IMG/VR virus record: IMGVR_UViG_3300037557_000128
Location: 15,349 to 79,348 of that record
Reading direction: 5' to 3' (one strand)
Length of the DNA: 64,000 nucleotides
Source: a virus
Within the stretch, counting starts at the first letter, position 1, and the number at the start of each line of letters is the position of its first letter. Position numbers and translations under genes: made by a program. Below, one piece after another: positions 31,828 to 49,628 of the stretch. The notes under the pieces were generated by a model. That model had not been told where the DNA came from, searched no databases, and worked only from the letters and a program-made list of their open reading frames with translations.

Positions 31828-32538
31828 CTATCTAATTGCGTTCCCTTTATCATCTATATCAAATAAAAACTCATCGGGGTTATAGTTATCAGCTTCAAGA
31901 CCTTTACAAAATATTGCATCATCGTTTAGATATTTTAAGGTACAATTAAAAGATATACTATATCTCTCTTTGTTTGTTGGGTTGGGTTCTACCATGTGCA
32001 TGAGACCACTTGGGAATAATATACACTCACCAGTATAGGGTTCAAAATATGAAGAAGTTGGTGTTCTAAGACTATGTGGAAAATCTGCAGCCACCTTTTG
32101 ATGCGTATCAATCATTGATATACGACCCTCGTCACCGTCTCCATGAATATAGAATACACCACTATACCAACAACCATTATGTAAATGTGGTGCGTTCCAA
32201 GCACCATTATTGTTAATGTTTGCCCATGAATTGTTTATATCTAACTTACACTCTGAAGGTTTAAGTCCATGAAAAGGCATTACTTCGTCAATAAAAAATT
32301 GTTCTATTCTATTCATGCATTTCTGAAAAGTTGGGCTTCTTTCGCACCCATCTTTTGATTGCCAACCTGTATATTGATTAGAGAGTTGTCTTCCTTTTGG
32401 GTCTCTTCTTCTCATGGCGTCCATTTCGTTTCGCAACATTAGACAATATTCTTTTGAAAATCCCTTATCTTCAGGTAAGCCTTCTTGCGTGAAGTTCCTA
32501 TGGAATACATAAGTTGGGAATAGTAATCTAACTGCCAT
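31828..32538 (-). CDS. Putative 2OG-Fe(II) oxygenase (TIGR02466-like)
   Basis: WANIN...HLH...SGVFYI...LFPSGLMHMVEPN...RYSISFN; likely start MAVRLLFP. Confidence 0.85.
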   Translation of the reverse strand: MAVRLLFPTYVFHRNFTQEGLPEDKGFSKEYCLMLRNEMDAMRRRDPKGRQLSNQYTGWQSKDGCERSPTFQKCMNRIEQFFIDEVMPFHGLKPSECKLDINNSWANINNNGAWNAPHLHNGCWYSGVFYIHGDGDEGRISMIDTHQKVAADFPHSLRTPTSSYFEPYTGECILFPSGLMHMVEPNPTNKERYSISFNCTLKYLNDDAIFCKGLEADNYNPDEFLFDIDDKGNAIR

Positions 32539-33805
32539 TTGGGTCTCTGTTGAACTTCCATACAGTTGTTTCTTCAACTTCTTTTAGAAATTCTATTGGA
32601 ATATTGTGGTCTGATATAACCGTTCCTCTATCACTGATGTTTCCTACACCATACTCACTAATATAATATTTGTTGTCTTTTATAGACAAATTATTAGGAT
32701 AAGCAACATTATACTTATCATGCAGATATATAGGGTACTCATTTTTATCACTATCACTTGTAATTAAATACTTTCTACAATCTTTGTTTTCCCAAGCCTT
32801 TTCAAACAGTGATACATCTTCAAACATACCTTTTAGATATTCATCACCAGTCATAAATGTAGGTGTACTATTAAATATATCAGGTCTTACATTCAGTTCT
32901 AAGAAATACCATTCTCCTTTAGAAGTGTAGGCACCACAAAAACTTCCTTCCCAACTTCCACCCATTTTAGCGATATGTTCTAAATATTTTTCAGACTCTT
33001 TTCTGACTATCTTATCTACGGAAGGACTTAATGGTTTCACATATGTGTCGAAATACCATACTTGTGGGATTACACCTTTATTCAACCCCTCACCTATTAT
33101 CTCTTGGGTATGAGTTATAGAATATTCTCCATTTGAAACTACAAAGAATACATTTGTTTCTATCATATCATGCAAATATTCTTCTATGAAATAATCTGCA
33201 TTTATACATCTCGGCCATTCAGGGTTGGTATTCAAATCTTTAAGGGGTTTTATGTCTTCCTCACTATTAATCACTATTGCAGGATACCAAATATGAGAGG
33301 CTTTCTCTACACATGGAAAGGAAAGTCCCTCACAATAATCTTCATCTAAATATTTTCCGTGTTTAACAATATTAGGAACCCTTACCCCAAGTTGCTTAGC
33401 TGTATCTTTTGCAAATAACTTGTCTGTTTCTAGACGACCTGATTTTTCTGTTGGGCCTATGTACTTAACTTTATCTTTAAAATAGGTATGTAAAAAAGAT
33501 ATATCAGGAATACAGACTTGAAGAATATCAATGTTGTACTTATCAATAAGTCCTTCTATAAATGCACATGATTCTATCTTTCTTTTTTCACTTATTTGAA
33601 TGGGTATATCTTCCACTCTTTCTGGCGAATACTTACCAAGACCAGTTACCCTACGATTTTCTTCTTCAGTTAAAGGGGTTATACCAAGAGAAGATTCGTA
33701 TTCATTTACATACGTCCAATTACTGTAAACTGTATGGCCAGAATTTACTAATTCTATCAAAGTATGAAAATGACAACGAGGAAGATTTAAATTTAGTATA
33801 TTCAC
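32528..33805 (-). CDS. Divergent ATP-grasp ligase (PurD-related fold)
   Basis: IGP...LETDKLFAKD, PCVEKA, FIEEYL, FLELNVR; GTG start coupled to upstream TGA. Confidence 0.75.
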   Translation of the reverse strand: MNILNLNLPRCHFHTLIELVNSGHTVYSNWTYVNEYESSLGITPLTEEENRRVTGLGKYSPERVEDIPIQISEKRKIESCAFIEGLIDKYNIDILQVCIPDISFLHTYFKDKVKYIGPTEKSGRLETDKLFAKDTAKQLGVRVPNIVKHGKYLDEDYCEGLSFPCVEKASHIWYPAIVINSEEDIKPLKDLNTNPEWPRCINADYFIEEYLHDMIETNVFFVVSNGEYSITHTQEIIGEGLNKGVIPQVWYFDTYVKPLSPSVDKIVRKESEKYLEHIAKMGGSWEGSFCGAYTSKGEWYFLELNVRPDIFNSTPTFMTGDEYLKGMFEDVSLFEKAWENKDCRKYLITSDSDKNEYPIYLHDKYNVAYPNNLSIKDNKYYISEYGVGNISDRGTVISDHNIPIEFLKEVEETTVWKFNRDPNGS

Positions 33806-34713
33806 TCTTGTCCGTCCCAATTTAAATCCGTTCTTTTTAGTTGTTCTTCTTTAAAGTCTTTCTTCATTTCACCAGTATTAGGGTCAAAAGGACATTCTGT
33901 TAAATCTTCTTTGAAATCCTTATGTTTTGGTTCCCAAACTTTCCCTCTTTTATAAGGGCCTGCCATATGAGTGGATTCATCTCCAAAACCTATCCTAGAT
34001 AACTCAGTCACCGTCATACGTTTATCAGGGTGTTCTGTAGTGTATTTTGATTGATTAGTTACATAAGACTCATGGTCTTTAACAGTATATGTCGCAACCC
34101 ATTCTTCTCTTTTGTATGGAATGATTTGACAAATAGGTGTACCCTTTGTTATAACAAATGAATGGTCTACTTTGGGGTATAGAATAATTTGTGAATTGTC
34201 TTTATTTGTATTAAACTTATCAGTATCAATAATACCTTGCCATGTCGCAAAGTAATCATTCTGAAATAAGAAAGGGTCTAAGTAGAAACAAGAATAGCCT
34301 GGTGGTGTAGTTATACACCATGCATTAGACATTTTGAATGCATCTTTGACTGGTGCATCCATAGTAGACATATAGTTAAATGCATCATGCATTTGTATAC
34401 TAGGGTGTGTTGCAGATGAATATTTCTCCATTTCAACATGGACTGTATCTTCAGTGTGATAAGATTTAGAATCAGAATCTTCATTTGTTACACCGTTTCT
34501 TATTAATATATCTCTATTTGCAAGAATAAGATACCCTGAAGATAACCAATCTTGCATTGCAGGACAAGACCTTATAGTCTTATTAACTACACCGTTTACA
34601 ACTTCTGCGACCTTTCCTTTTTTCCACCAATCAGGTGTAACAGACTTTGCAAGAACTGGTTTAAAATTCTTTAAAGTTTCTTTATCGTATGTATGAAAGT
34701 CTATCATCGGCAT
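33802..34713 (-). CDS. DUF6065-like protein (possible dUTPase-like fold)
   Basis: TIRSCPAMQDWLSSGY...TPPGYS...GIIDTD...ITKGTPICQIIPYKRE. Confidence 0.6.
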   Translation of the reverse strand: MPMIDFHTYDKETLKNFKPVLAKSVTPDWWKKGKVAEVVNGVVNKTIRSCPAMQDWLSSGYLILANRDILIRNGVTNEDSDSKSYHTEDTVHVEMEKYSSATHPSIQMHDAFNYMSTMDAPVKDAFKMSNAWCITTPPGYSCFYLDPFLFQNDYFATWQGIIDTDKFNTNKDNSQIILYPKVDHSFVITKGTPICQIIPYKREEWVATYTVKDHESYVTNQSKYTTEHPDKRMTVTELSRIGFGDESTHMAGPYKRGKVWEPKHKDFKEDLTECPFDPNTGEMKKDFKEEQLKRTDLNWDGQE

Positions 34714-35392
34714 GATAATTTTCCCCCTCTTCTTCTAATCTGACCTCGTCTCCACGAACCACTAATGAACGTCTATCCATGTACCTCGAACTTGGGTCGG
34801 GTGCATCTGCACCATGTGGTATTCTTCCGTCAAACATAATAAGTCTATTTGGTTTAAAATCAATCTCACCTATTTGGTGATTCTTAATATGTTCATCTCT
34901 ACCGTCTAAACCCTGTTGAGGTTTATCATATAATCTTAATGTTCCACCCCACGCAGGATTCCAATATCTATTTGGGTAATATAGAAATGAAAGATTCCAA
35001 CTGTCTTCTTCTGCACAATCTTGATGTGTAGTTCCCTGTAATCCTTGAGTCTGACTATTTAGGCCTGCGTATTGAAACCTTACCCATTTAAAACCAAACT
35101 CAGTTTGAAGTCTTCTATCTAAGTAATTTGTAAACCAAGTGTCTTCGATTCTGACATCTTTATCGATTTTATGAAAGTTTCTAAAAAATGTTGCACCCCA
35201 AAAACTATGGTGTGGTAAACCAGTTGAAGAACCACTACTGACTTGATTTGTCTTACTCCATATGTTATCAAGAGAGATTCTTTCATCATAATGATGATGT
35301 AATGGTTGAGCCAACCAATCATCTAATACATAAACTTTTGTTAAGGGTAAAGTCTGTATTTTGAAAGGTTCATCTAAATGAACAATCTCCAT
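34682..35392 (-). CDS. 2OG-Fe(II) oxygenase (prolyl-hydroxylase-like)
   Basis: THQD...WGGTLRLY...PNRLIMFDGRIPHGA...RRSLV. Confidence 0.85.
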   Translation of the reverse strand: MEIVHLDEPFKIQTLPLTKVYVLDDWLAQPLHHHYDERISLDNIWSKTNQVSSGSSTGLPHHSFWGATFFRNFHKIDKDVRIEDTWFTNYLDRRLQTEFGFKWVRFQYAGLNSQTQGLQGTTHQDCAEEDSWNLSFLYYPNRYWNPAWGGTLRLYDKPQQGLDGRDEHIKNHQIGEIDFKPNRLIMFDGRIPHGADAPDPSSRYMDRRSLVVRGDEVRLEEEGENYHADDRLSYIR

Positions 35393-35393
35393 A

Positions 35394-35963
35394 CTAACTC
35401 TGTTGGTGGTCTGGCAGTTTAGTTGGTGCTGGTATATGCATTGAATACTCGTCCAATTCCTTTAAAGTATCTTCACGAGTTGCTTTAATTTCTGCACATA
35501 TTTGGTCTAATACACTGTATAGTGCATCACCATATTCCATAACCCTTCTTGCATTAGACCTAAATGGGTGGTTAGAACCCTCTCTACCTGCAAAAGTAAC
35601 CTCACCTAAATCACTAAAACCATGCATATCAATAGTTTCTTTTAGATAATCTCCAACCTGTTCATTTAACCTTGACATAAGTTGATTGTTTAAATTAGTT
35701 CCCAAAGGTGGTTCTGAATTTGCAATATACTGTTCAACCATTTCTTTTTCTGCATCAGATAGGTCTAGTTTTTCTTGCATATCAAAATTTTGTTCTCTGT
35801 CCCACTTCATGATTTTGATTTCTATATCATCATACACCAACATATCATATTCAAACCCTAATTCAGGTTTGTCGACATTTTGAAATTCGTATTCCAATCC
35901 GTTAGGTTTTCTGACAAAGAGGTTGCTATCTTCCGTGAATATTAAAGCGTTTTTTACATTCAT
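35394..35963 (-). CDS. Hypothetical protein, possibly tail-fibre assembly chaperone-like
   Basis: C-terminal HGFSDLGEVTF...PFRSNARRVMEYGDALY loosely resembles phage fibre-assembly proteins. Confidence 0.45.
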   Translation of the reverse strand: MNVKNALIFTEDSNLFVRKPNGLEYEFQNVDKPELGFEYDMLVYDDIEIKIMKWDREQNFDMQEKLDLSDAEKEMVEQYIANSEPPLGTNLNNQLMSRLNEQVGDYLKETIDMHGFSDLGEVTFAGREGSNHPFRSNARRVMEYGDALYSVLDQICAEIKATREDTLKELDEYSMHIPAPTKLPDHQQS

Positions 35964-35997
35964 AATAATTTTCCTATAATCTCTCTATTATACCATA

Positions 35998-37518
35998 TTA
36001 TTGCGTGGAGTCATAGAGGTTTTTGTACTTGTTGTATACTTCAAGATTATTTATAGAGTCAAAATTCATATCATTTATCCAAGGCCCGCCCCTAGTGTAA
36101 TGAATCCCAGTGTAATCCCACTTCTCTTCAGGGTTGTCATAACCTTCGACAAATATATATTTTTGAGGTATTTCAGATATTGCATTAGTCCATTCGAACT
36201 GATGTAGTTGTTTTCCTGTCCAAGTGTTCACAACTTCAGGTGTTAACTTCTTACAGTCCTCATGACTGTTGTTGAAAAACATCATTGAAGACCACAATTT
36301 ACATGGATAATCTATGTTTACTTCTCCATTGAACTTAGACTCGTCATGTTTATATTGTGGGTATTTGATACACGCAACTGCATCATCAGGATTTAGATAA
36401 TAGAACATAGGTAGTAATGACTTCTTAAATATAAAATCGTTATCCACAAATAGACTAAACCCTTCATAGTTCTCTAAGTGTGGTATAAGAAATCTACTGT
36501 ATGTAAATTCAGTACTTTGATTTGCGTACTCCCTATTATAATCGGGAAGTTTAGAAATGTCAAGCAATTTAATGGTTGGACTAAATCTAGTGTACTCTTG
36601 AAACTCACCCAGTGAATGTGCATCTGAGATTGTTTGTGTGATTGACTTTTCACACACTTTCTCTAAATCATTCATTGTACTATCATAACCGATATAAACG
36701 GTTAGTGGTTTACCTGCAGAAAGTTTATGAACCTTTTTATTAAACTTAAAGACATCATCTCTAAATCCAAGTTCTGCTAAATCTGTTTGCCATTCTATCA
36801 CACCCCGACATAGTTGGAATGCAATATTTTTATGTCTTCCTCTTTTGTCTAGTTTATCGCCCCAATACTCTAATACTTCATCAAGTGTTGTACTTGGAAA
36901 ATCTGAGAGTTGTCCAGTCTTATCCCATATCATACACTCCATATCGTCATTTTCCATTTCTTCAAATACGCAAGAACGAACAGAGCCTGGGTGGATTGTT
37001 AATTGAATTAGGTCATCAACTGGATTTGTTGTATAACCTTGAATTGGTGCCCAAAGTCCTTCTTCTTGAATACTTTGAGTTAACCAGTGTGCTTTTGCAC
37101 TATGGTAATAACAAGAACCTACTACTTCTTTTACTCTTGGGTCTTCTTTATGAGACGGTCTAACATTTACAACAGTATCTAAAATGTTAACTTCTTCATC
37201 TTCTTTTTGGAATCCGAATCCTGCGTGATTTCCCACCATGTTTAAACTAGAATAACCATGAGGAAGATACCTATGATAATAATTAGACTTATCTAATAGA
37301 CCATTAAAACTCATGAATCTTTTTTCTTTTCTTAATTGAAGTGTATCACCCCATTTAAAGATTTTAAGTGGTGGAAGAATTTCTTCAAACAACCACTGTA
37401 TGATTTTATATGATTCTTTATCTGTTTCACCAATATTAAGGGAACCTAAATGTAAGGCGTCCATAGTTTCTTTGGTGATAAGAGATTGAGCTTGCTCTAG
37501 TGTAGTAATTTTTTCCAT
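35998..37518 (-). CDS. Fusion of ParB/Srx-like domain and GT-A glycosyltransferase (GT8/CDI-like)
   Basis: C-half VYIGYDS, STEFTYSRFLIP, FVDND (DxD), WSSMMFFN, HYTRGGPW; N-half SIQEEGLWAPI...HPGSVR. Confidence 0.8.
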   Translation of the reverse strand: MEKITTLEQAQSLITKETMDALHLGSLNIGETDKESYKIIQWLFEEILPPLKIFKWGDTLQLRKEKRFMSFNGLLDKSNYYHRYLPHGYSSLNMVGNHAGFGFQKEDEEVNILDTVVNVRPSHKEDPRVKEVVGSCYYHSAKAHWLTQSIQEEGLWAPIQGYTTNPVDDLIQLTIHPGSVRSCVFEEMENDDMECMIWDKTGQLSDFPSTTLDEVLEYWGDKLDKRGRHKNIAFQLCRGVIEWQTDLAELGFRDDVFKFNKKVHKLSAGKPLTVYIGYDSTMNDLEKVCEKSITQTISDAHSLGEFQEYTRFSPTIKLLDISKLPDYNREYANQSTEFTYSRFLIPHLENYEGFSLFVDNDFIFKKSLLPMFYYLNPDDAVACIKYPQYKHDESKFNGEVNIDYPCKLWSSMMFFNNSHEDCKKLTPEVVNTWTGKQLHQFEWTNAISEIPQKYIFVEGYDNPEEKWDYTGIHYTRGGPWINDMNFDSINNLEVYNKYKNLYDSTQ

Positions 37519-37551: not shown

Positions 37552-38412
37552 TTAACTTGTAACTGGTGTAGCAGGCCATTGTTGAGATAGTGTACTATCC
37601 CACCTAATGACTGGTGTTCTACCTTGTCGGGCATAAGTTCCAGGCGTCCTATGTTGATATGTGAACGGTGTCTGACCTTGTCTTGCATATGTGCCAGGCG
37701 TTCTATGTTGATAAGTCGTTGGTGTTTGACCTTGTCTAGCATATGTACTTGGTGTTCTATGTTGATAGGTAAATGGTGTTTGACCTTGTCTCGCATATGT
37801 GCCAGGCGTTCTATGTTGATATGTAGTAGGTGTTTGACCTTGTCTAGCATATGTGCCAGGCTGTCTGTTTTGATATGTAGTAGGTGTCTGACCTTGTCTA
37901 GCATACGTTCCTGGCTGCCTATTACTATATGTAAATGGAGTCTGTCCTTGTCTCGCATATGTTGTAGGTTGACTAGCAATATATGGATATGGATTTTGTC
38001 TATTCGCAATATAAGGTTGTTGTCCAGCTACAGGATTCCTATAGGTAAATGGACTCCTATTATTATATGTGAACGGACTCTGACTATTACTAGGTTGTCT
38101 TGCGTTCGCAGGATACCTTGCGTTATATGTGAATGGACTCTGACTATTACTAGGAGACTGTCCATTAGCAGGATACCTTGCGTTATATGTGAACGGTTGT
38201 CTCGCATTACTAGGAGACTGAGCATTCGCAGGATACCTTGCGTTATAGGTATACGGAGTCCTTGCGTTATAGGTAAATGGACTCTGACTATTACTAGGAG
38301 ACTGTCCATTAGCAGGATACCTTGCGTTATAAGTTCCAGGCTGCCTAGCTGAAGCAATGGCAGGTTGCTGGGTATTAGCGATTACTGGTTGTTGTGCTTG
38401 TCCGATTGCCAT
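37552..38412 (-). CDS. Pro/Tyr/Gln/Arg-rich repeat protein 'B' (partner of 38412-39863)
   Basis: 286 aa, almost all repeats; no K, E or C and one D; coupled to upstream stop. Confidence 0.85.
   Translation of the reverse strand: MAIGQAQQPVIANTQQPAIASARQPGTYNARYPANGQSPSNSQSPFTYNARTPYTYNARYPANAQSPSNARQPFTYNARYPANGQSPSNSQSPFTYNARYPANARQPSNSQSPFTYNNRSPFTYRNPVAGQQPYIANRQNPYPYIASQPTTYARQGQTPFTYSNRQPGTYARQGQTPTTYQNRQPGTYARQGQTPTTYQHRTPGTYARQGQTPFTYQHRTPSTYARQGQTPTTYQHRTPGTYARQGQTPFTYQHRTPGTYARQGRTPVIRWDSTLSQQWPATPVTS
37612..37968 (-). repeat. 54-bp coding tandem repeats (PGTYARQGQTPxTYQHRT, about 6.5 copies)
   Basis: Recurrent gcatatgtgccaggcgttctatgttgat / gtttgaccttgtc. Confidence 0.9.
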
Positions 38413-39863
38413 TATCTTTTATTCCCCCCGCCGTTATGAACTAACACACCTTCTGTAAAGTATGTTTTAGTGTGTTCAACGGAAGTTAAATGATAGACTG
38501 TAGCAGTTCCATTTTCTGTTATGGAGTTAACTGTTACCCCTGATTGACCAACTGTAAAGACTTCGTCTCCTACTGCGAGTTCTCCACTTAGTTCTATTCC
38601 CCAATCAACGTCTTTTAACTCAATATCACACTCTTCCTGATTCGCATATTTCCAACCTGAATCAGTGTGTATTGGGTGTCCACCTGTTACACCTAGTGTT
38701 TTTCCATTTGATAATTCTACGTTCCAAACTTTTATGTTTTCTCTTGGAACCATGACCTCAGTAACATTCTGAGGCATAAGTTTACCATGACTAAAGTCAA
38801 ATGTCATTACTGCATCTCCAACATTAACGTTTTCTATGTTCATATGATTGTTATCAGCCATCAAAATTTGTGTTCCAGCAATGAAACACCCACCACCACC
38901 GCCACCATACGGATAAGTGTATGGATTACGATATGCATACGAAACTGGTGTCCTCTGTTGAAAGGTAAATGGATTCTGACTGTTTGCTATATAAGGAACT
39001 CTGTATGTAAATGGGTTTCTATATGTTCCAGGCTGTCTTGCATTAGCAATGTATGGTTGTCTTGCGTTTGCGATATAAGGAACCCTGTATGTAAATGGGT
39101 TTCTATATGTGAATGGATTTCTTGCATTAGCAATATAAGGAACCCTATATGTAAATGGGTTTCTGTATGTTCCAGGCTGTCTTGCGTTTGCGATATAAGG
39201 AACTCTGTATGTAAATGGGTGTCTGTATGTTCCAGGCTGTCTTGCGTTTGCGATATAAGGTTGCTGTGCGCTTACAGGACTTCTATAGGTAAATGGATTC
39301 CTGTTTTGATATGTACTAGGTGTCTGACCTTGTCTTGCATATGTTGTAGGTTGACTAGCAATATACGGATAAGGTTGTTGTGCATTAGCAATATATGGTG
39401 TTTGATTGCTCGCAATATACGGATAAGGATTTTGTCTATTCGCAATATATGGAGTCTGATTACTTGCTATATACGGGTAAGGGTTTTGTCTATTCGCAAT
39501 ACTTGGGGTCTGATTGCTTGCTATATACGGGTAAGGTTGTTGAGCGTTCGCAATACTTGGAGCTTGAGCATTTGCTATATAAGGGTACGGATTTTGTCTA
39601 TTCGCAATACTTGGGGTCTGACTATTAGCAATGTATGGATAAGGTTGTTGTGCGTTCGCAATACTTGGAGTCTGACTATTAGCAATGTATGGATAAGGTT
39701 GTTGAACTGAAGTCTGACCCGAAGCGTTATTCCAAGTGGAAGGCCCAGTCTTTACATAAACCTGTTCTGCAGCTTTCCAAGTCGTTCCACCCGTCTTTAC
39801 CCACGCACCTTGTGTGGCATTCCAACCTGTAGGTGTTTTGACGTGTTGTTTTCCTGTTGCCAT
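38412..39863 (-). CDS. Repeat protein 'A' with N-terminal VKTxxxW domain and C-terminal Hint domain
   Basis: WVKTGGTTWK/VYVKTGPSTW; repeats aa 56-318; G6 linker; CFIAGTQI...VLVHN. Confidence 0.88.
   Translation of the reverse strand: MATGKQHVKTPTGWNATQGAWVKTGGTTWKAAEQVYVKTGPSTWNNASGQTSVQQPYPYIANSQTPSIANAQQPYPYIANSQTPSIANRQNPYPYIANAQAPSIANAQQPYPYIASNQTPSIANRQNPYPYIASNQTPYIANRQNPYPYIASNQTPYIANAQQPYPYIASQPTTYARQGQTPSTYQNRNPFTYRSPVSAQQPYIANARQPGTYRHPFTYRVPYIANARQPGTYRNPFTYRVPYIANARNPFTYRNPFTYRVPYIANARQPYIANARQPGTYRNPFTYRVPYIANSQNPFTFQQRTPVSYAYRNPYTYPYGGGGGGCFIAGTQILMADNNHMNIENVNVGDAVMTFDFSHGKLMPQNVTEVMVPRENIKVWNVELSNGKTLGVTGGHPIHTDSGWKYANQEECDIELKDVDWGIELSGELAVGDEVFTVGQSGVTVNSITENGTATVYHLTSVEHTKTYFTEGVLVHNGGGNKR
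38433..38888 (-). other. Hint (intein-like) autoprocessing domain, no homing endonuclease
   Basis: Cys1 block CFIAGTQILMAD...IENVNVGD, TGGHPI (TxxH), VYHLT...YFTEGVLVHN. Confidence 0.85.
39375..39698 (-). repeat. 54-bp coding tandem repeats (PYPYIANSQTPSIANAQQ, 6 copies)
   Basis: Recurrent ttcgcaatacttgg..tctga / ggataaggttgttg. Confidence 0.9.
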
Positions 39864-39916: not shown

Positions 39917-41875
39917 TTAGGAGTATAATACCCACAAATCACCAACTGCACCTGCACCACCTGTAGGAGCAGAAGTAGATTGATGAATATTTCTTGCAGT
40001 TCCACCAGCATTTGTTGCGTTAGTGATTGTAATCGCACCTGAAGCGATTGTACCTACTGAAATATTTGGAGAACCACTTAATCCAGCAGCTGTTCCTGAA
40101 GTATTCTGAGTACCTGATGCATTAACACCTGGCAAGTTGATATTTGCACTACCATTAAATGATACACCACCAATTGTTCTTGCACTAGCAAGAATAGTCG
40201 CTGTAGCAGCATTACCTGTTGTTGAACCTGAACTACCTGAAGTATTTCCTGTTACGTTACCAGTTACATTACCAACGAGGTTTCCTTCAAATGTTCCTGC
40301 AACTATTTTTTCTGAACCAACTGACCATTCGTCTTCTGATTCATCCCATATAAAGGATTTAGTTGCACTTCCACCTCTTAATACTGAGAAACCAGTATCT
40401 TCTGAAGGTGAACCTGAAGTGAAGTTTGAGTTAAGAACAATAATGTTATCTGCAAGGTTAATTGTTTCTGAATTAACTGTAGTTGTTGTTCCTGAAACTG
40501 TTAGCGTTCCTGCAATTGTTACATTATCGTTAAGTGCAACAACACCAGTTCCGTTTGCAGTCAAAGTTAAGTTAGTATTTGCACTTCTTGATTCGATTGC
40601 ATCTACGTCAATTGAGTTTGAGAATGCAATTGCGTTTCCGTCTGAAGATGAAATGTTAGAACCTGCAGTAACTTGTACTGGGCCTTTCAATTCAATCTGA
40701 CCAGTTCCTGTTGGGTCTAATTCAACATCACCTGAACCTGAAGTTGATACTTTTACGTTTTGGTTAGAGTCTGCAGAAATTGTAATTGTTCCTGAATCGT
40801 CTTCAACCACTTTCTGACCGTTAACATATAATGAACCTGGCCCAACAAAGACATCTCTCCACTGTTTACTTGCAGAACCTAAATCGTAAGTATCGTCTGT
40901 GGTCGGTAGGATATGACCACCGATTGTAGAAGCCGCAGTTGTTGTAACACCTGCGAATGAGGGTTTAGCTGAAGTTGCAATGTCCTGACCAATGGATAGT
41001 GAATGTGTTGTACCTTCTCCACTTGTTGCAGCTGATGAAGTAACACCAGTTCCACCAGTTATTGTTCCTACATAATTTCCTGTTGTGTCTGTTCCTAATG
41101 CAACACTATTGGCTGCTATAGTTAATGCAGTTGATAAGTTAGCAGAACCATCAAAACTACCTGTACCTGTTACATCTCCTGTAAATGCTAAAGTTCTTGC
41201 AGTTGTTAAAGTAGCTGCAGAACCTGTAGTACTTTGGTTAAGTGTTCCGACTGTAAAATCAAGCGTTCCGTCTCCGTCCTGATATGCAACTGTAACTCCG
41301 CTCTCTGTATTTGACGATACCATTGCACCGACAATGTCTTGAACTCTCTCTGCGTTTACTGTGACATCACCACTTGAGACTGTAAAGTCTGTTCCGTCAA
41401 ATGTTGCGATACCAGCATTAGTTTCTGTCGCAAGTTCTCCTGCGATTGTTAGTGTAGTTCCAGTTGCAGAAGTGTCAATACCTGCACCACCAGCAATAGT
41501 AAACGATTCAGTATCTAAATCAACATCAATACTTCCACTATCTGATGCAATATCTAAATCTTGTGCGTTAAGTGATGTTGTAACTGCATCTACATATGCT
41601 TTAATTGATTGTTGAGAGGCGAGTGCCGTTGCACTGTTTGACGCCATATTGTCTTCATCGGTAATTGGTACATCAATAACGATTGTATCTGCACCGTCAT
41701 TGTATGTTGCAGTTGCACCACCTGTTGCACTGATTATTCCACCAATCTTATCTGCGATTGCTTCGTTTACTGCAGTTCCAACTCCACCAGCGACCAAGTC
41801 ACCTGATGAGTTAATTACCTCTACACCACCAACGGATAGACCGTTCTTTACGTTAAAATTCTTTTCTCCTGCCAT
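39917..41875 (-). CDS. Tail/appendage fibre protein
   Basis: G/S/T-rich fibre repeats; N-terminal FNVKNGLSVG; C-terminal STSAPTGGAGAVGDLWVLYS. Confidence 0.8.
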   Translation of the reverse strand: MAGEKNFNVKNGLSVGGVEVINSSGDLVAGGVGTAVNEAIADKIGGIISATGGATATYNDGADTIVIDVPITDEDNMASNSATALASQQSIKAYVDAVTTSLNAQDLDIASDSGSIDVDLDTESFTIAGGAGIDTSATGTTLTIAGELATETNAGIATFDGTDFTVSSGDVTVNAERVQDIVGAMVSSNTESGVTVAYQDGDGTLDFTVGTLNQSTTGSAATLTTARTLAFTGDVTGTGSFDGSANLSTALTIAANSVALGTDTTGNYVGTITGGTGVTSSAATSGEGTTHSLSIGQDIATSAKPSFAGVTTTAASTIGGHILPTTDDTYDLGSASKQWRDVFVGPGSLYVNGQKVVEDDSGTITISADSNQNVKVSTSGSGDVELDPTGTGQIELKGPVQVTAGSNISSSDGNAIAFSNSIDVDAIESRSANTNLTLTANGTGVVALNDNVTIAGTLTVSGTTTTVNSETINLADNIIVLNSNFTSGSPSEDTGFSVLRGGSATKSFIWDESEDEWSVGSEKIVAGTFEGNLVGNVTGNVTGNTSGSSGSTTGNAATATILASARTIGGVSFNGSANINLPGVNASGTQNTSGTAAGLSGSPNISVGTIASGAITITNATNAGGTARNIHQSTSAPTGGAGAVGDLWVLYS

Positions 41876-47195: not shown

Positions 47196-47912
47196 TTATG
47201 TTTGATACTGTGCCGAAGGAACAGATTGGTGAATTTGTTTTACAGTAGGTGTTCCATCGTTCACATAAACTTTATCCAACTTCCTTAAAGTTCCACCATC
47301 ATTCACGAATACCCCTTTAACTTTTGCAAGAGGCCCAATAGTTCTAGTTGTTGGATAAGTTACCTGATATGCATACGGTTGTTGGAATGTGTACTGTGTC
47401 GTATAGGGAACCTGATAAATGTTTGGTTGTCTTGCTTGTGCGATATAAGGTTGTTGTCCACTTACAGGACTTCTATAAGTTGCAGGCTGTCTGTTTTGAT
47501 ATGTAAACGGAGTCTGACTATTTACAGGACTTCTATAAGTTCCAGGCTGTCTTGACTGATATGTTCCAGGCTGTCTTGCCTGTGCAATATATGGATACGT
47601 TACTTGCCCTTGTCTAGAATATGTAAATGGTAATCGTCCCTGTCTTACATATATGCCTGGCTGTCTCGCTTGACCAATAGACGGTTGTTGTCCAGCTACA
47701 GGACTTCTATAAGTTCCAGGCTGCCTTGCTTGTGCGATATAAGGTGTCTGACTATTTACAGGACTTCTATAAGTTCCAGGCTGTCTCGCATTACCAATAG
47801 ACGGTTGTTGACCACTTACAGGGTTTCTGTAAGTGTTAGGTTGTCTCGCATTACCAATAGAAGGTTGCTGTCCAATTGCAGGGTATGGATATGGTTGTTG
47901 TCCTATAGGCAT
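47196..47912 (-). CDS. Repeat protein 'D' with C-terminal VxVND domain (partner of 48666-49628)
   Basis: Repeats aa 7-187; C-terminus KVKGVFVNDGGTLRKLDKVYVNDG; own late promoter at 47958-47965. Confidence 0.85.
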   Translation of the reverse strand: MPIGQQPYPYPAIGQQPSIGNARQPNTYRNPVSGQQPSIGNARQPGTYRSPVNSQTPYIAQARQPGTYRSPVAGQQPSIGQARQPGIYVRQGRLPFTYSRQGQVTYPYIAQARQPGTYQSRQPGTYRSPVNSQTPFTYQNRQPATYRSPVSGQQPYIAQARQPNIYQVPYTTQYTFQQPYAYQVTYPTTRTIGPLAKVKGVFVNDGGTLRKLDKVYVNDGTPTVKQIHQSVPSAQYQT

Positions 47913-48664
47913 TACGCTACCCCCAAATAGTCTACTTGTTTTGCTTGTTTGACTTCATATTTATAGTTATTACTCCAATTATTTGGGTGCGACTCTTTTA
48001 AACTCTTAATATGATTTTTCGGGAATACATAACATACGTCCATGTTCCAAGCTATAATACTTTTACGTTCATTCGTTTCCATTTTAGGGGCACGGTGTAA
48101 TAACCAAGAAGGGAATATAAGCATATCTCCTTCCTCAGCTTTAGGTTGTATAATTTCTTGCGTTTCAGGATTCAAAAATTCTGTAATATACTTTTGATTT
48201 GGTACTTCTATAAAATATACTGCTGACCATTGACACCATTGATGATTATCCCAACTGATATAATCTGATTGAAACATTTGGTGATACCACATATGCATAA
48301 TATTAAATTTATATTCTAAACCAGTAATTTCTGGCTGTATATGAAACCTTGCGTGGTCATGAAATTTATTCTCTACAGCATCTAAGAACATTTTCTTATA
48401 TTCTATATGAGGATACCCCTTTACATTCATATCCCATTCATCAATATCTCCACTACCACCAGTATAATCATTAATTGAGTCTTGGTATTGCCAACCTGTT
48501 GGTAAGATAGGGGAAGAAGGGTGGTTATGCCCATCAAATTTAGTAATTCCTAAATTATAATCTTGATTACCAATTTGAGTAGGTAAAGCGTCAAAGAAAT
48601 CTAAAAGACTCTTATTAAGTTCTTTATGATTATCAATCGTATATTTGTATATTAAATTATTCAT
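47912..48664 (-). CDS. Putative 2OG-Fe(II) oxygenase (TIGR02466-like)
   Basis: MWYHQM...WDNH...WSAVYFI...EEGDMLIFPSWLLHRAP...RKSIIAWN. Confidence 0.8.
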   Translation of the reverse strand: MNNLIYKYTIDNHKELNKSLLDFFDALPTQIGNQDYNLGITKFDGHNHPSSPILPTGWQYQDSINDYTGGSGDIDEWDMNVKGYPHIEYKKMFLDAVENKFHDHARFHIQPEITGLEYKFNIMHMWYHQMFQSDYISWDNHQWCQWSAVYFIEVPNQKYITEFLNPETQEIIQPKAEEGDMLIFPSWLLHRAPKMETNERKSIIAWNMDVCYVFPKNHIKSLKESHPNNWSNNYKYEVKQAKQVDYLGVA

Positions 48665-48665
48665 G

Positions 48666-49628
48666 TTAACCTAGTAAAGCAAAGTACAAAGATGCACCAT
48701 TACTATTCGGAATATAAATCGGGCTGCCTACAATGGCACCTTGAGATGCCCCAGTATGATGAATACCGCCAGTAACAGTAAAATCTGTGGTTCTTGTTAA
48801 TGTAGTATAATTTGAAGAACTTGACCCGATCCGACAAGTTGTCCAGTTAGTGTTAAGACTACTCCAAGATAATTTTAATCCACCACCGTCACGATGAGAA
48901 TAAACAGTTAAACCATCTCCATCTAGACTCAAAGCTGGAGACATATTTGTTGCTTGAAAATAAACACTAATCTTTCCGCCAGGTTCATATCTAGTAACAT
49001 CTCCATTCGAAGTGAATGTGTAAATGTAAGGTTGTGTCCCTGTTGCTTGATAGGTAAATGGCGACCTGTGATTATATGTAAATGGAGTCTGACTATTTAC
49101 AGGACTTCTATAAGTGAACGGAGTCCTGTGATTATATGTAAATGGAGTCTGACTATTTACAGGATTTCTATAAGTTCCAGGCTGTCTTGCCTGATAGTTA
49201 AACGGAGTCTGACTATTTACAGGATTTCTATAAGTGAACGGAGTCCTGTGTTGATAGGTAAATGGAGTCTGACTATTCGCATTGTAAGGATACGGTTGTT
49301 GGTCGCTAGCAGCATACGGATACGTTGCTTGAGCTTGTCGTGCATATGTAAATGGAGTCTGACTATTAGCAATATATGGAGACTGACTGTTTACAGGATT
49401 TCTGTAAGTGTTAGGTTGTCTTGCGTTTGCGATATAAGGTGTCTGACTATTTACAGGATTTCTATAAGTGAACGGTGACCTGTGAGCGTAAGTGAACGGA
49501 GACTGCTGACTTGCATTTCCTTGTGCATCATATTGTGCAGTAATAGGAGCAGTTCCAATCGCAGGTTGTCTCGCAATATACTGTTGTTGAAAACTAGTAC
49601 CAGTGTTTATAAATATTTCTTTAGACAT
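48666..49628 (-). CDS. Repeat protein 'C' with ~115-aa globular C-terminal domain
   Basis: Repeats aa 22-200 (TYRNPVNSQTP etc.); non-repetitive C-terminus. Confidence 0.85.
   Translation of the reverse strand: MSKEIFINTGTSFQQQYIARQPAIGTAPITAQYDAQGNASQQSPFTYAHRSPFTYRNPVNSQTPYIANARQPNTYRNPVNSQSPYIANSQTPFTYARQAQATYPYAASDQQPYPYNANSQTPFTYQHRTPFTYRNPVNSQTPFNYQARQPGTYRNPVNSQTPFTYNHRTPFTYRSPVNSQTPFTYNHRSPFTYQATGTQPYIYTFTSNGDVTRYEPGGKISVYFQATNMSPALSLDGDGLTVYSHRDGGGLKLSWSSLNTNWTTCRIGSSSSNYTTLTRTTDFTVTGGIHHTGASQGAIVGSPIYIPNSNGASLYFALLG

What the first reader, a model, noticed from the sequence alone, without database searches (positions are those of the whole stretch)
38412..38910. Hint domain flanked by oligo-glycine at the predicted distal tip of filament A
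Seen in sequence: ...PY-GGGGGG-[CFIAGT...TGGH...VLVHN]-GGGNKR-stop. Cys1, the block-B His and the terminal His-Asn are intact, but the +1 residue is Gly and the C-extein is only 6 aa, so canonical splicing is not possible. Established: Hint domains form an N-extein thioester that can be resolved by external nucleophiles (Hedgehog, bacterial intein-like domains). Inference: the tip is cleaved, or ligated to the released GGGNKR by aminolysis, or covalently coupled to another molecule such as chain B's nearby N-terminus, a product of the neighbouring enzymes or a host surface amine. In pair 2 the equivalent position carries a globular domain, so the tips look like swappable modules.
Basis: partly seen in the sequence, partly recalled or inferred. 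Interest (0 to 1): 0.78.

Follow-up and report, generated by a model that had tools for sequence, protein, structure and literature searches.

The report
Self-removing intein-like cap on phage fibre
A repeat-rich fibre-like protein of an uncultured marine T4-like phage ends in an intact intein-like (Hint) domain that most likely removes itself after translation. Sister phages carry the same gene without the domain, and there the glycine run and the short tail are simply joined.

Summary
Gene 38412-39863 (- strand, 483 aa) reads conserved head, Pro/Tyr/Asn/Gln/Arg repeats, G6, a 152-aa Hint domain (Cys326 to Asn477), GGGNKR, stop.

The domain is a confident Hint fold. Its nearest solved relatives are the Tetrahymena BIL2 domain and the C. 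thermocellum BIL domain. By sequence features it matches type-A bacterial intein-like (BIL) domains: Cys1, TxxH, terminal His-Asn, no +1 nucleophile, no endonuclease, and a hypervariable host protein.

Gly-1, Cys1, the block-B His and His-Asn are invariant in 34 relatives whose full-length identity to this protein falls to 46%. dN/dS is 0.14-0.28.

New here: I collected 110 proteins with the same head. About 62 carry the Hint, 22 run from the glycine run straight into a short tail, and about 24 end in a globular domain. Orthologous Hint-plus and Hint-less alleles sit in collinear loci.

So the Hint behaves like an intein-type insertion, and the Hint-less alleles look like its spliced product. 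Self-excision is the best reading, probably with re-ligation of the tail. Coupling to chain B, to enzyme products or to the host gains no support.

All 32 distinct Hint-type tails contain a Lys, which is unexplained. No processing has been shown.

This scan has met C-terminal Hint caps on phage fibres before, in other genomes.

The parts
38412..39863 (-). Gene A: 483-aa head + repeat + G6 + Hint + tail protein
   Evidence: ORF list and translation. 17 metagenomic relatives are 68-84% identical over residues 319-483 (the Hint and its flanks).
39699..39863 (-). Conserved N-terminal head (residues 1-55), the only Lys-bearing part apart from the Hint and the tail
   Evidence: 67-100% identical across 62 Hint-type relatives. 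Many columns are invariant in A3. Small beta strands of low confidence in the full-length model.
38907..39698 (-). Pro/Tyr/Asn/Gln/Arg/Thr repeat region (residues 56-319), with no Lys, Asp, Glu or Cys
   Evidence: Composition count. No confident structure in the monomer model.
38889..38906 (-). Six-glycine run (residues 320-325), the end of the N-extein; Gly-1 is the predicted thioester carbonyl
   Evidence: Gly325 is invariant in 34 relatives. A glycine run is present in nearly all Hint-type and Hint-less short alleles.
38433..38888 (-). Hint domain, Cys326 to Asn477 (152 aa), with block B T393-G-G-H396 and terminal H476-N477
   Evidence: Pfam. AlphaFold2 pLDDT 92.8. Foldseek top hits 6Y75/6TMM BIL2 and 2LWY BIL. 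Catalytic residues invariant. dN/dS 0.14-0.28.
38412..38432 (-). C-extein GGGNKR plus the stop codon; the stop overlaps the start of gene B (TAATG)
   Evidence: In the Hint-type relatives the tail is 4-15 aa (one 27-aa tail in L072) and always contains Lys. The TAATG junction is conserved in related loci.
37552..38412 (-). Gene B: 286-aa Lys-free repeat protein, translationally coupled to A. Context only; not shown to take part in the Hint chemistry.
   Evidence: Every Hint-type allele and nearly every Hint-less short allele is followed by a B-like gene. Among globular-tipped alleles only L083, which in fact carries a degenerate Hint, is.

Best explanation
The last 158 residues of protein A are a type-A BIL-like (intein-like) Hint domain plus a 6-residue C-extein. 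The domain sits exactly between the terminal glycine run and the short basic tail of a phage fibre-like repeat protein.

Proposed steps after translation:
1. Cys326 attacks the Gly325 carbonyl (N-S acyl shift, assisted by the block-B Thr393/His396), giving a thioester.
2. Asn477 cyclises with the help of His476 and cuts the Hint from the tail.
3. An amine of the tail resolves the unhindered Gly thioester. This is either the alpha-amine of Gly478 or the epsilon-amine of Lys482.

The Hint is thereby excised, leaving a fibre that ends ...GGGGGG + GGGNKR. That is the same kind of end that Hint-less sister alleles encode directly.

Shown here: the fold, the intact and conserved catalytic residues, the lack of a +1 nucleophile, the position of the insertion, and the existence of Hint-less alleles.

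Inferred: every chemical step, and re-ligation as opposed to simple loss of the tail.

Unresolved: whether the domain is a tolerated intein-like passenger or serves the phage, for example as a temporary cap that delays assembly.
For: Fold and nearest relatives:
- Pfam Hint-clan hits and an AlphaFold2 pLDDT of 92.8.
- The best solved matches are Tetrahymena BIL2 6Y75/6TMM (TM 0.74-0.84) and C. thermocellum BIL 2LWY, ahead of mini-inteins and Hedgehog 1AT0.

Conservation:
- Gly325, Cys326, His396, His476 and Asn477 are invariant in 34 relatives whose full-length identity to this protein falls to 46%; across the 62 Hint-type relatives pairwise Hint identity goes down to 23%.
- dN/dS over the domain is 0.14-0.28.
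- +1 is never C/S/T in 32 distinct tails. Every tail is at least 4 aa long and contains Lys.

Literature:
- Type-A BILs keep His-Asn, lack the +1 nucleophile and mostly cleave. They can splice through Asn cyclisation followed by aminolysis of the thioester (PMC4031507; PMC7664689).

Comparative evidence:
- Of 110 proteins with the same head, 22 lack the Hint and read repeats, glycine run, short tail.
- L080 (...VYFYGGGGGGGG-FFPQQLK) closely matches P0207 and P0184 (...VYFYGGGG-[Hint]-ISTK and ...VYFYGPSGGG-[Hint]-FSEK) over the upstream 40 aa.
- L073 (...GGGGG-FQSNPFAHFDQR) matches P0206 (...GGGGGG-[Hint]-FGNNNFPDQNQK).
- The flanking genes are collinear.
- On the head tree, presence of the Hint needs at least 3 well-supported changes.
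Against: - No experiment shows any processing in this family.
- In vitro, type-A BILs give mainly cleavage products, not spliced ones.
- A freed 6-residue peptide has little to hold it in place for aminolysis.
- Many relatives have a bulky +1 residue (Phe, Met, Leu, Ile).
- One relative (L083) keeps Cys1 and block B but has Asp-Ser in place of His-Asn. Re-ligation through Asn cyclisation cannot be universal.
- The head tree has only 62 columns and is poorly resolved.
- Conservation of catalytic residues would also be expected for a purely parasitic intein.
Confidence: 0.45

Rival explanations
1. Cleavage-only cap. The Hint forms the thioester, which is hydrolysed. The fibre then ends in ...GGGGGG-COOH, and the Hint with its tail is discarded. 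This would be a functional analogue of the self-cleaving C-terminal intramolecular chaperone domains of other phage fibres and tailspikes. The tail would be needed only so that the Hint folds, or it is a relic.
For: - Cleavage dominates for BIL domains in vitro.
- L083 has lost His-Asn but keeps Cys1 and block B.
- 34 of 136 representative relatives carry such a domain within 15 aa of the C-terminus, some with a one-residue tail.
- The Hint is the only confidently folded part of the A monomer.
Against: - His-Asn is kept in about 63 of 64 Hint-type A proteins, although N-terminal cleavage does not need it.
- Tails are never shorter than 4 aa and always contain Lys.
- Hint-less alleles carry a comparable tail joined to the glycine run.
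Confidence: 0.3
2. Conjugating tip. The Gly325 thioester is resolved by an outside amine: the N-terminus of B, a Lys in the head of another A or of another virion protein, a product of the neighbouring enzymes, or a host-surface amine. The fibre end would then be covalently coupled to that molecule.
For: - The closest solved relative, Tetrahymena BIL2, is reported to form an isopeptide bond (Lys epsilon-amine to the C-terminus). It is also reported to conjugate its N-extein to other proteins (PMC8616854).
- Like BIL2, this domain has Gly-Gly before Cys1 and a Tyr-His motif near the C-terminus (alignment).
- A and B are translationally coupled.
- B has no Lys, so its N-terminus is its only primary amine.
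Against: - 22 Hint-less alleles keep the same head, repeats, glycine run, tail, downstream B-like gene and neighbours. So the A/B pair and its neighbourhood persist without any thioester.
- Most B-like proteins start Met-Pro. If the Met is removed this would leave a secondary amine, which is a poor nucleophile.
- A thioester-competent precursor would have to survive in the virion.
Confidence: 0.12
3. Retained tip. The Hint does not process itself. It stays on the fibre as a structural or receptor-binding end domain.
For: - It occupies the position where other family members carry a globular domain.
- It is the only folded domain predicted at that end.
Against: - The invariant positions are exactly the catalytic ones (Gly-1, Cys1, block-B His, His-Asn). 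The rest of the domain diverges to 23-40% identity.
- No surface patch is conserved independently of the active site.
- Hint-less alleles do without it.
Confidence: 0.06

Closest known systems
Type-A bacterial intein-like (BIL) domains, e.g. C. thermocellum BIL, PDB 2LWY (Amitai 2003 and Dassa 2004, as summarised in PMC4031507 and PMC7765530)
   Same: - Hint fold, Cys1, block-B TxxH and C-terminal His-Asn.
- No +1 nucleophile and no homing endonuclease.
- Sits in a hypervariable, non-essential surface-type protein.
- Predicted N-terminal thioester plus Asn cyclisation, with splicing possible by aminolysis.
   Different: - The host is a phage fibre-like repeat protein, not a bacterial secreted protein.
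- The domain lies at the extreme C-terminus with a C-extein of only 4-15 aa.
- Flanked by a glycine run. A Lys is found in every tail rather than at +1.
- Natural Hint-less alleles exist.
BIL2 domain of the Tetrahymena thermophila BUBL1 polyubiquitin-like locus (PDB 6Y75, 6TMM)
   Same: - Best structural match (TM 0.74-0.84).
- Second-best match by sequence among solved structures, after 8W20.
- Gly-Gly before Cys1, a Tyr-His motif in block F, and terminal His-Asn.
- Its reported use of a Lys amine is a precedent for the conserved tail Lys here.
   Different: - It is eukaryotic and lies between two ubiquitin-like domains.
- Conjugation is its reported function. Here Hint-less alleles show that the A/B locus and its neighbours persist without it.
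- Only about 22% identical.
Class 1 mini-inteins (e.g. Ssp DnaB, gp41-1, Mtu RecA)
   Same: - Same fold and the same blocks A, B, F and G.
- Presence/absence polymorphism at a fixed site in a host gene.
- The host protein without the insert looks like the spliced product.
   Different: - No Cys/Ser/Thr at +1, so there can be no branched ester intermediate.
- Inserted in a low-complexity linker at the end of a variable protein, not in a conserved active site.
Hedgehog/Hog autoprocessing domains
   Same: - A Gly-Cys-Phe junction.
- A C-terminal Hint that releases the N-terminal part through a thioester resolved by an outside nucleophile.
   Different: - Hedgehog lacks the terminal His-Asn and has a sterol-recognition region.
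- Here His-Asn is invariant and only 6 residues follow.
- The structural match is weaker (1AT0 at rank 33).
Self-cleaving C-terminal intramolecular chaperone domains of phage tailspikes and fibres (Peptidase_S74 type; from my own knowledge, not tested here)
   Same: A C-terminal domain on a phage fibre that is removed autocatalytically after it has done its job.
   Different: Unrelated fold and chemistry (a Ser-Lys dyad against a Cys thioester with Asn cyclisation).

Membership tests
Hint superfamily | Hint fold (horseshoe beta structure with the N- and C-termini adjacent) | tested here: met
   AlphaFold2 pLDDT 92.8, pTM 0.88. Foldseek probability 1.00 to BIL domains, inteins and Hedgehog. Pfam Vint above its cut-off and five other Hint-clan families below theirs.
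Type-A BIL domain | N-terminal Cys/Ser nucleophile and block-B Thr-x-x-His | tested here: met
   Cys326 and His396 are invariant and Thr393 is at least 90% conserved in 34 relatives.
Type-A BIL domain | C-terminal His-Asn | tested here: met
   His476-Asn477 are invariant. His-Asn ends 225 of 240 complete domains in the wider family.
Type-A BIL domain | No nucleophilic residue at +1 | tested here: met
   +1 is Gly here. +1 is G/F/M/I/L/K/R in 32 distinct tails, with no C/S/T.
Type-A BIL domain | Located in variable regions of non-conserved proteins; no homing endonuclease | tested here: met
   The gene lies in the hypervariable host-recognition cluster of pelagimyophage-type genomes (PMC7029224). 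The domain is 152 aa with no insert.
Type-A BIL domain | Autocatalytic N- and C-terminal cleavage, with or without splicing | not testable with these tools
   Needs expression and mass spectrometry.
Canonical (class 1) intein | Cys/Ser/Thr at +1 for transesterification | tested here: not met
   Gly478. None among 32 distinct tails.
Canonical (class 1) intein | Insert-free alleles of the host gene exist with the flanks contiguous | tested here: met
   22 Hint-less alleles. Pairs L080/P0207 and L073/P0206. Collinear flanks.
Hedgehog/Hog domain | Sterol-recognition region after the Hint; no terminal His-Asn | tested here: not met
   Only 6 residues follow the Hint, and His-Asn is invariant.
PT-HINT of polymorphic toxins | A toxin domain downstream of the Hint | tested here: not met
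   The PT-HINT hit is below its cut-off (23.2 against 27.7 bits). There is no downstream domain.

The most novel reading that the evidence does not exclude
The Lys found in every Hint-type tail (32 of 32 distinct tails), and at +1 in 59% of domains in the wider family, may be the working nucleophile that replaces the intein's +1 Cys/Ser/Thr.

On this reading the Hint performs a lysine-mediated isopeptide splice. It would give a branched fibre end (Gly325 carbonyl on Lys482 N-epsilon), or it would hand the fibre's glycine end to Lys amines of other virion proteins, as reported for Tetrahymena BIL2.

That would make this a natural ATP-free protein-ligation device on phage fibres.
Probability: 0.2. 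Interest if true: 0.8.

Novelty: new variant of a known kind. Interest (0 to 1): 0.6.

Why it matters
Non-intein Hint domains are very common in marine phage and bacterial metagenomes: 4832 representative relatives of this domain alone. Yet I found no paper that treats them as ends of phage fibres.

This locus offers something rare for the class. Natural, orthologous Hint-plus and Hint-less alleles of the same gene sit in collinear genomes. Together they predict the processed product and give ready-made controls.

If the tail is re-ligated, this would be a natural case of protein splicing without a side-chain nucleophile, or through lysine, on a very small C-extein. That bears on intein evolution and on traceless protein-ligation tools.

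If the domain only cleaves, it is a second, unrelated solution to the self-removing caps that other phage fibres use.

Tried and rejected
- **Cultured phages.** megablast of 10 kb and tblastn of the whole protein against 50,697 phage records found nothing. tblastn of the Hint alone found only helicase inteins at about 29% identity.
- **Literature.** Searches for Hint domains with tail fibres, for pelagimyophage papers and for intein-like structural proteins gave nothing on the subject.
- **Read-through or frameshift fusing A to B.** This would make the Hint internal. I rejected it by eye: the B frame has a stop three codons before its ATG, and in related loci the A-B gap varies from 0 to +47 nt.
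- **Homology of pair 2's globular tip to A-family globular tips.** BLASTP aligned only the repeats.
- **Curli-subunit reading of A and B.** I did not pursue it, because I saw no signal-peptide-like N-terminus in either protein by eye.
- **Gene context of Hint-less proteins.** I used the search for related loci instead.
- **Distances in the model.** I could not measure how far the tail Lys lies from Cys1.

Full report
**What is there.**
All genes in the window run on the - strand. The window belongs to a 79-kb IMG/VR viral contig that CheckV rates 44% complete. Its major capsid protein is 67% identical to that of Methylophilales phage Melnitz and 64% identical to that of Pelagibacter phage HTVC008M. 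This is therefore an uncultured T4-like marine myovirus of the pelagimyophage type.

The gene in question is 38412-39863 (-). It lies just downstream of a protein with tail-fibre PHROG hits (39917-41875). The region corresponds to the hypervariable 'host recognition cluster' described for pelagimyophages, which lies between VrlC and the neck gene (PMC7029224).

The 483-aa product has five parts:
- a conserved 55-aa head;
- 264 residues of Pro/Tyr/Asn/Gln/Arg/Thr repeats with no Lys, Asp, Glu or Cys;
- six glycines;
- a 152-aa Hint domain from Cys326 to Asn477;
- the tail GGGNKR.

The stop codon overlaps the start of the next gene as TAATG. That gene encodes B, a 286-aa Lys-free repeat protein.

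**It is a real and apparently active Hint domain.**
Six Hint-clan Pfam families match. Only Vint is above its cut-off.

The AlphaFold2 model of residues 319-483 has pLDDT 92.8. In a model of the whole protein the Hint is the only confident part.

The best Foldseek matches among solved structures, in order, are:
- the BIL2 domain of the Tetrahymena BUBL1 locus (6Y75/6TMM; TM 0.74-0.84);
- the C. thermocellum bacterial intein-like domain (2LWY);
- mini-inteins;
- Hedgehog 1AT0, only at rank 33.

Across 34 relatives whose full-length identity to this protein falls to 46%, the invariant Hint columns include Gly-1, Cys1, the block-B His and the terminal His-Asn (the others are Phe327, Ile343, Pro397 and Trp404). 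The block-B Thr is at least 90% conserved. Pairwise dN/dS over the domain is 0.14-0.28.

**Which kind of Hint.**
The domain has every sequence feature given for type-A BIL domains: Cys1, TxxH, C-terminal His-Asn, no +1 nucleophile, no endonuclease, and a variable host protein.

The wider family is very large, with 4832 representatives at E<=0.001. In 240 complete domains from the best 136 proteins:
- residue 1 is Cys in 237;
- the end is His-Asn in 225;
- +1 is Lys in 142 and Cys/Ser/Thr in only 23.

In addition, 76 of those proteins carry tandem copies, up to seven. 34 have a copy within 15 residues of the C-terminus. Glycine runs on both flanks are common. The oligo-glycine frame is thus a family habit, not a peculiarity of this gene.

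According to the literature, type-A BILs mostly cleave. They can also splice: Asn cyclisation frees the C-flank, whose amino group then attacks the N-terminal thioester (PMC4031507). Tetrahymena BIL2 is reported to form an isopeptide bond between a Lys epsilon-amine and the C-terminus, and to conjugate its N-extein to other proteins (PMC8616854).

**The new evidence: natural alleles with and without the Hint.**
The head domain retrieves a family. I collected 110 distinct members, in three types:
- About 62-64 end glycine run, Hint, short tail.
- 22 have no Hint and run from the repeats through a glycine run straight into a 4-12-aa tail. Examples are ...VYFYGGGGGGGG-FFPQQLK and ...FGGGGG-FQSNPFAHFDQR.
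- About 24 end in a globular domain.

Close pairs show that the Hint sits exactly between the glycine run and the tail:
- L080 (Hint-less) closely matches P0207 and P0184 over the 40 residues upstream. Those two read ...VYFYGGGG-[Hint]-ISTK and ...VYFYGPSGGG-[Hint]-FSEK.
- L073 pairs with P0206, which reads ...GGGGGG-[Hint]-FGNNNFPDQNQK. Both tails are 12 residues long and start with Phe.

The surrounding genes are collinear at 66-73% nucleotide identity.

On a tree of the head (only 62 columns, poorly resolved), the Hint label needs 11 changes, at least 3 of them forced by well-supported branches. The window's protein lies in an all-Hint clade of 21 rows. Hint divergence tracks head divergence (Pearson 0.69). 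Inheritance is therefore mostly vertical, with repeated loss or gain.

**What this implies.**
The Hint-less alleles are what a spliced product would look like. They keep the downstream B-like gene and the neighbouring enzymes. So the A/B pair and its neighbourhood persist without a thioester.

It favours self-excision. Several observations favour re-ligation of the tail over mere cleavage:
- His-Asn is kept although N-terminal cleavage does not need it.
- No tail is shorter than 4 residues.
- All 32 distinct tails contain Lys, and in 28 it lies within the last two residues.

Other observations argue against re-ligation:
- BILs cleave more than they splice in vitro.
- A free hexapeptide would diffuse away.
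- Many relatives have a bulky +1 residue.
- One relative (L083) has Asp-Ser in place of His-Asn while keeping Cys1 and block B.

A Lys epsilon-amine attack before Asn cyclisation would avoid the diffusion problem. It would also explain the universal Lys. I rate this as the most novel reading still open.

**Limits.**
- Nothing here shows that A is in the virion.
- Nothing shows that its C-terminus is distal.
- Nothing shows that any processing occurs.
- Whether the Hint benefits the phage or is merely tolerated is open. Its retention in the window's whole clade hints at some use, because the glycine linker should make loss easy. That is inference.

**Earlier notes of this scan** describe C-terminal Hint caps on phage fibres in several other genomes. 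They name the same closest relatives. I re-derived the BIL assignment independently. The Hint-plus/Hint-less allele comparison is not mentioned in the summaries of those notes that I saw.

Noticed in passing
window 37552-38412 and loci L021-L089: Every Hint-type A allele and nearly every Hint-less glycine-run allele is followed within 0 to +52 nt by a B-like repeat protein, usually Lys-free. The junction is often TAATG. Among globular-tipped alleles only L083, which in fact carries a degenerate Hint, is followed by one. The A end and B seem functionally linked.
   Followed up: partly
L083:5001-6266: An A-family protein whose Hint keeps Gly-Cys-Phe and block B (TEDHP) but ends ...NGHLVDS instead of ...LVHN. 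It looks like a variant capable of N-terminal cleavage only.
   Followed up: partly
window 31828-37518 and 47912-48664: Three 2OG-Fe(II) oxygenase genes and a gene with a weak, below-cut-off glycosyltransferase-8 match (19.8 against 24.3 bits) lie next to the two pairs of repeat-protein genes. The repeats are rich in Pro, Asn, Arg and Tyr, so they may be hydroxylated or glycosylated.
   Followed up: no
P0024, P0030, P0033 and others (metagenomic proteins): Proteins made of up to seven tandem Hint domains joined by 1-3 residues (HN-K-G-G-CF) are among the best relatives of this domain. P0088 alternates Hint domains with ubiquitin-like segments, as in the Tetrahymena BUBL loci.
   Followed up: no
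P0173, P0174: Two globular-tipped A-family proteins still end in a glycine run plus three residues (...SGGGGSPV...SGSGGGGPL). The glycine-run end recurs even behind a globular domain.
   Followed up: no
window 47196-47912: By eye, the last ~45 residues of the second pair's short chain (...VKGVFVNDGGTLRKLDKVYVNDG...) resemble the N-terminal head of A (...WVKTGGTTWKAAEQVYVKTG...). The head-like module would then sit at the opposite end of that chain.
   Followed up: no
window 48666-49628: There is a below-cut-off Pfam match to Cementoin, the trappin transglutaminase-substrate repeat (25.5 against 27 bits), in a Gln-rich repeat protein. Many A-family tails end in Lys, so Gln-Lys cross-linking is a thought. 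It is only a thought.
   Followed up: no
BFVD entry A0A6J5QMR4: A protein from an uncultured phage annotated as 'collagen triple helix repeat' matches the Hint model. Hint domains also accompany collagen-like phage fibres.
   Followed up: no
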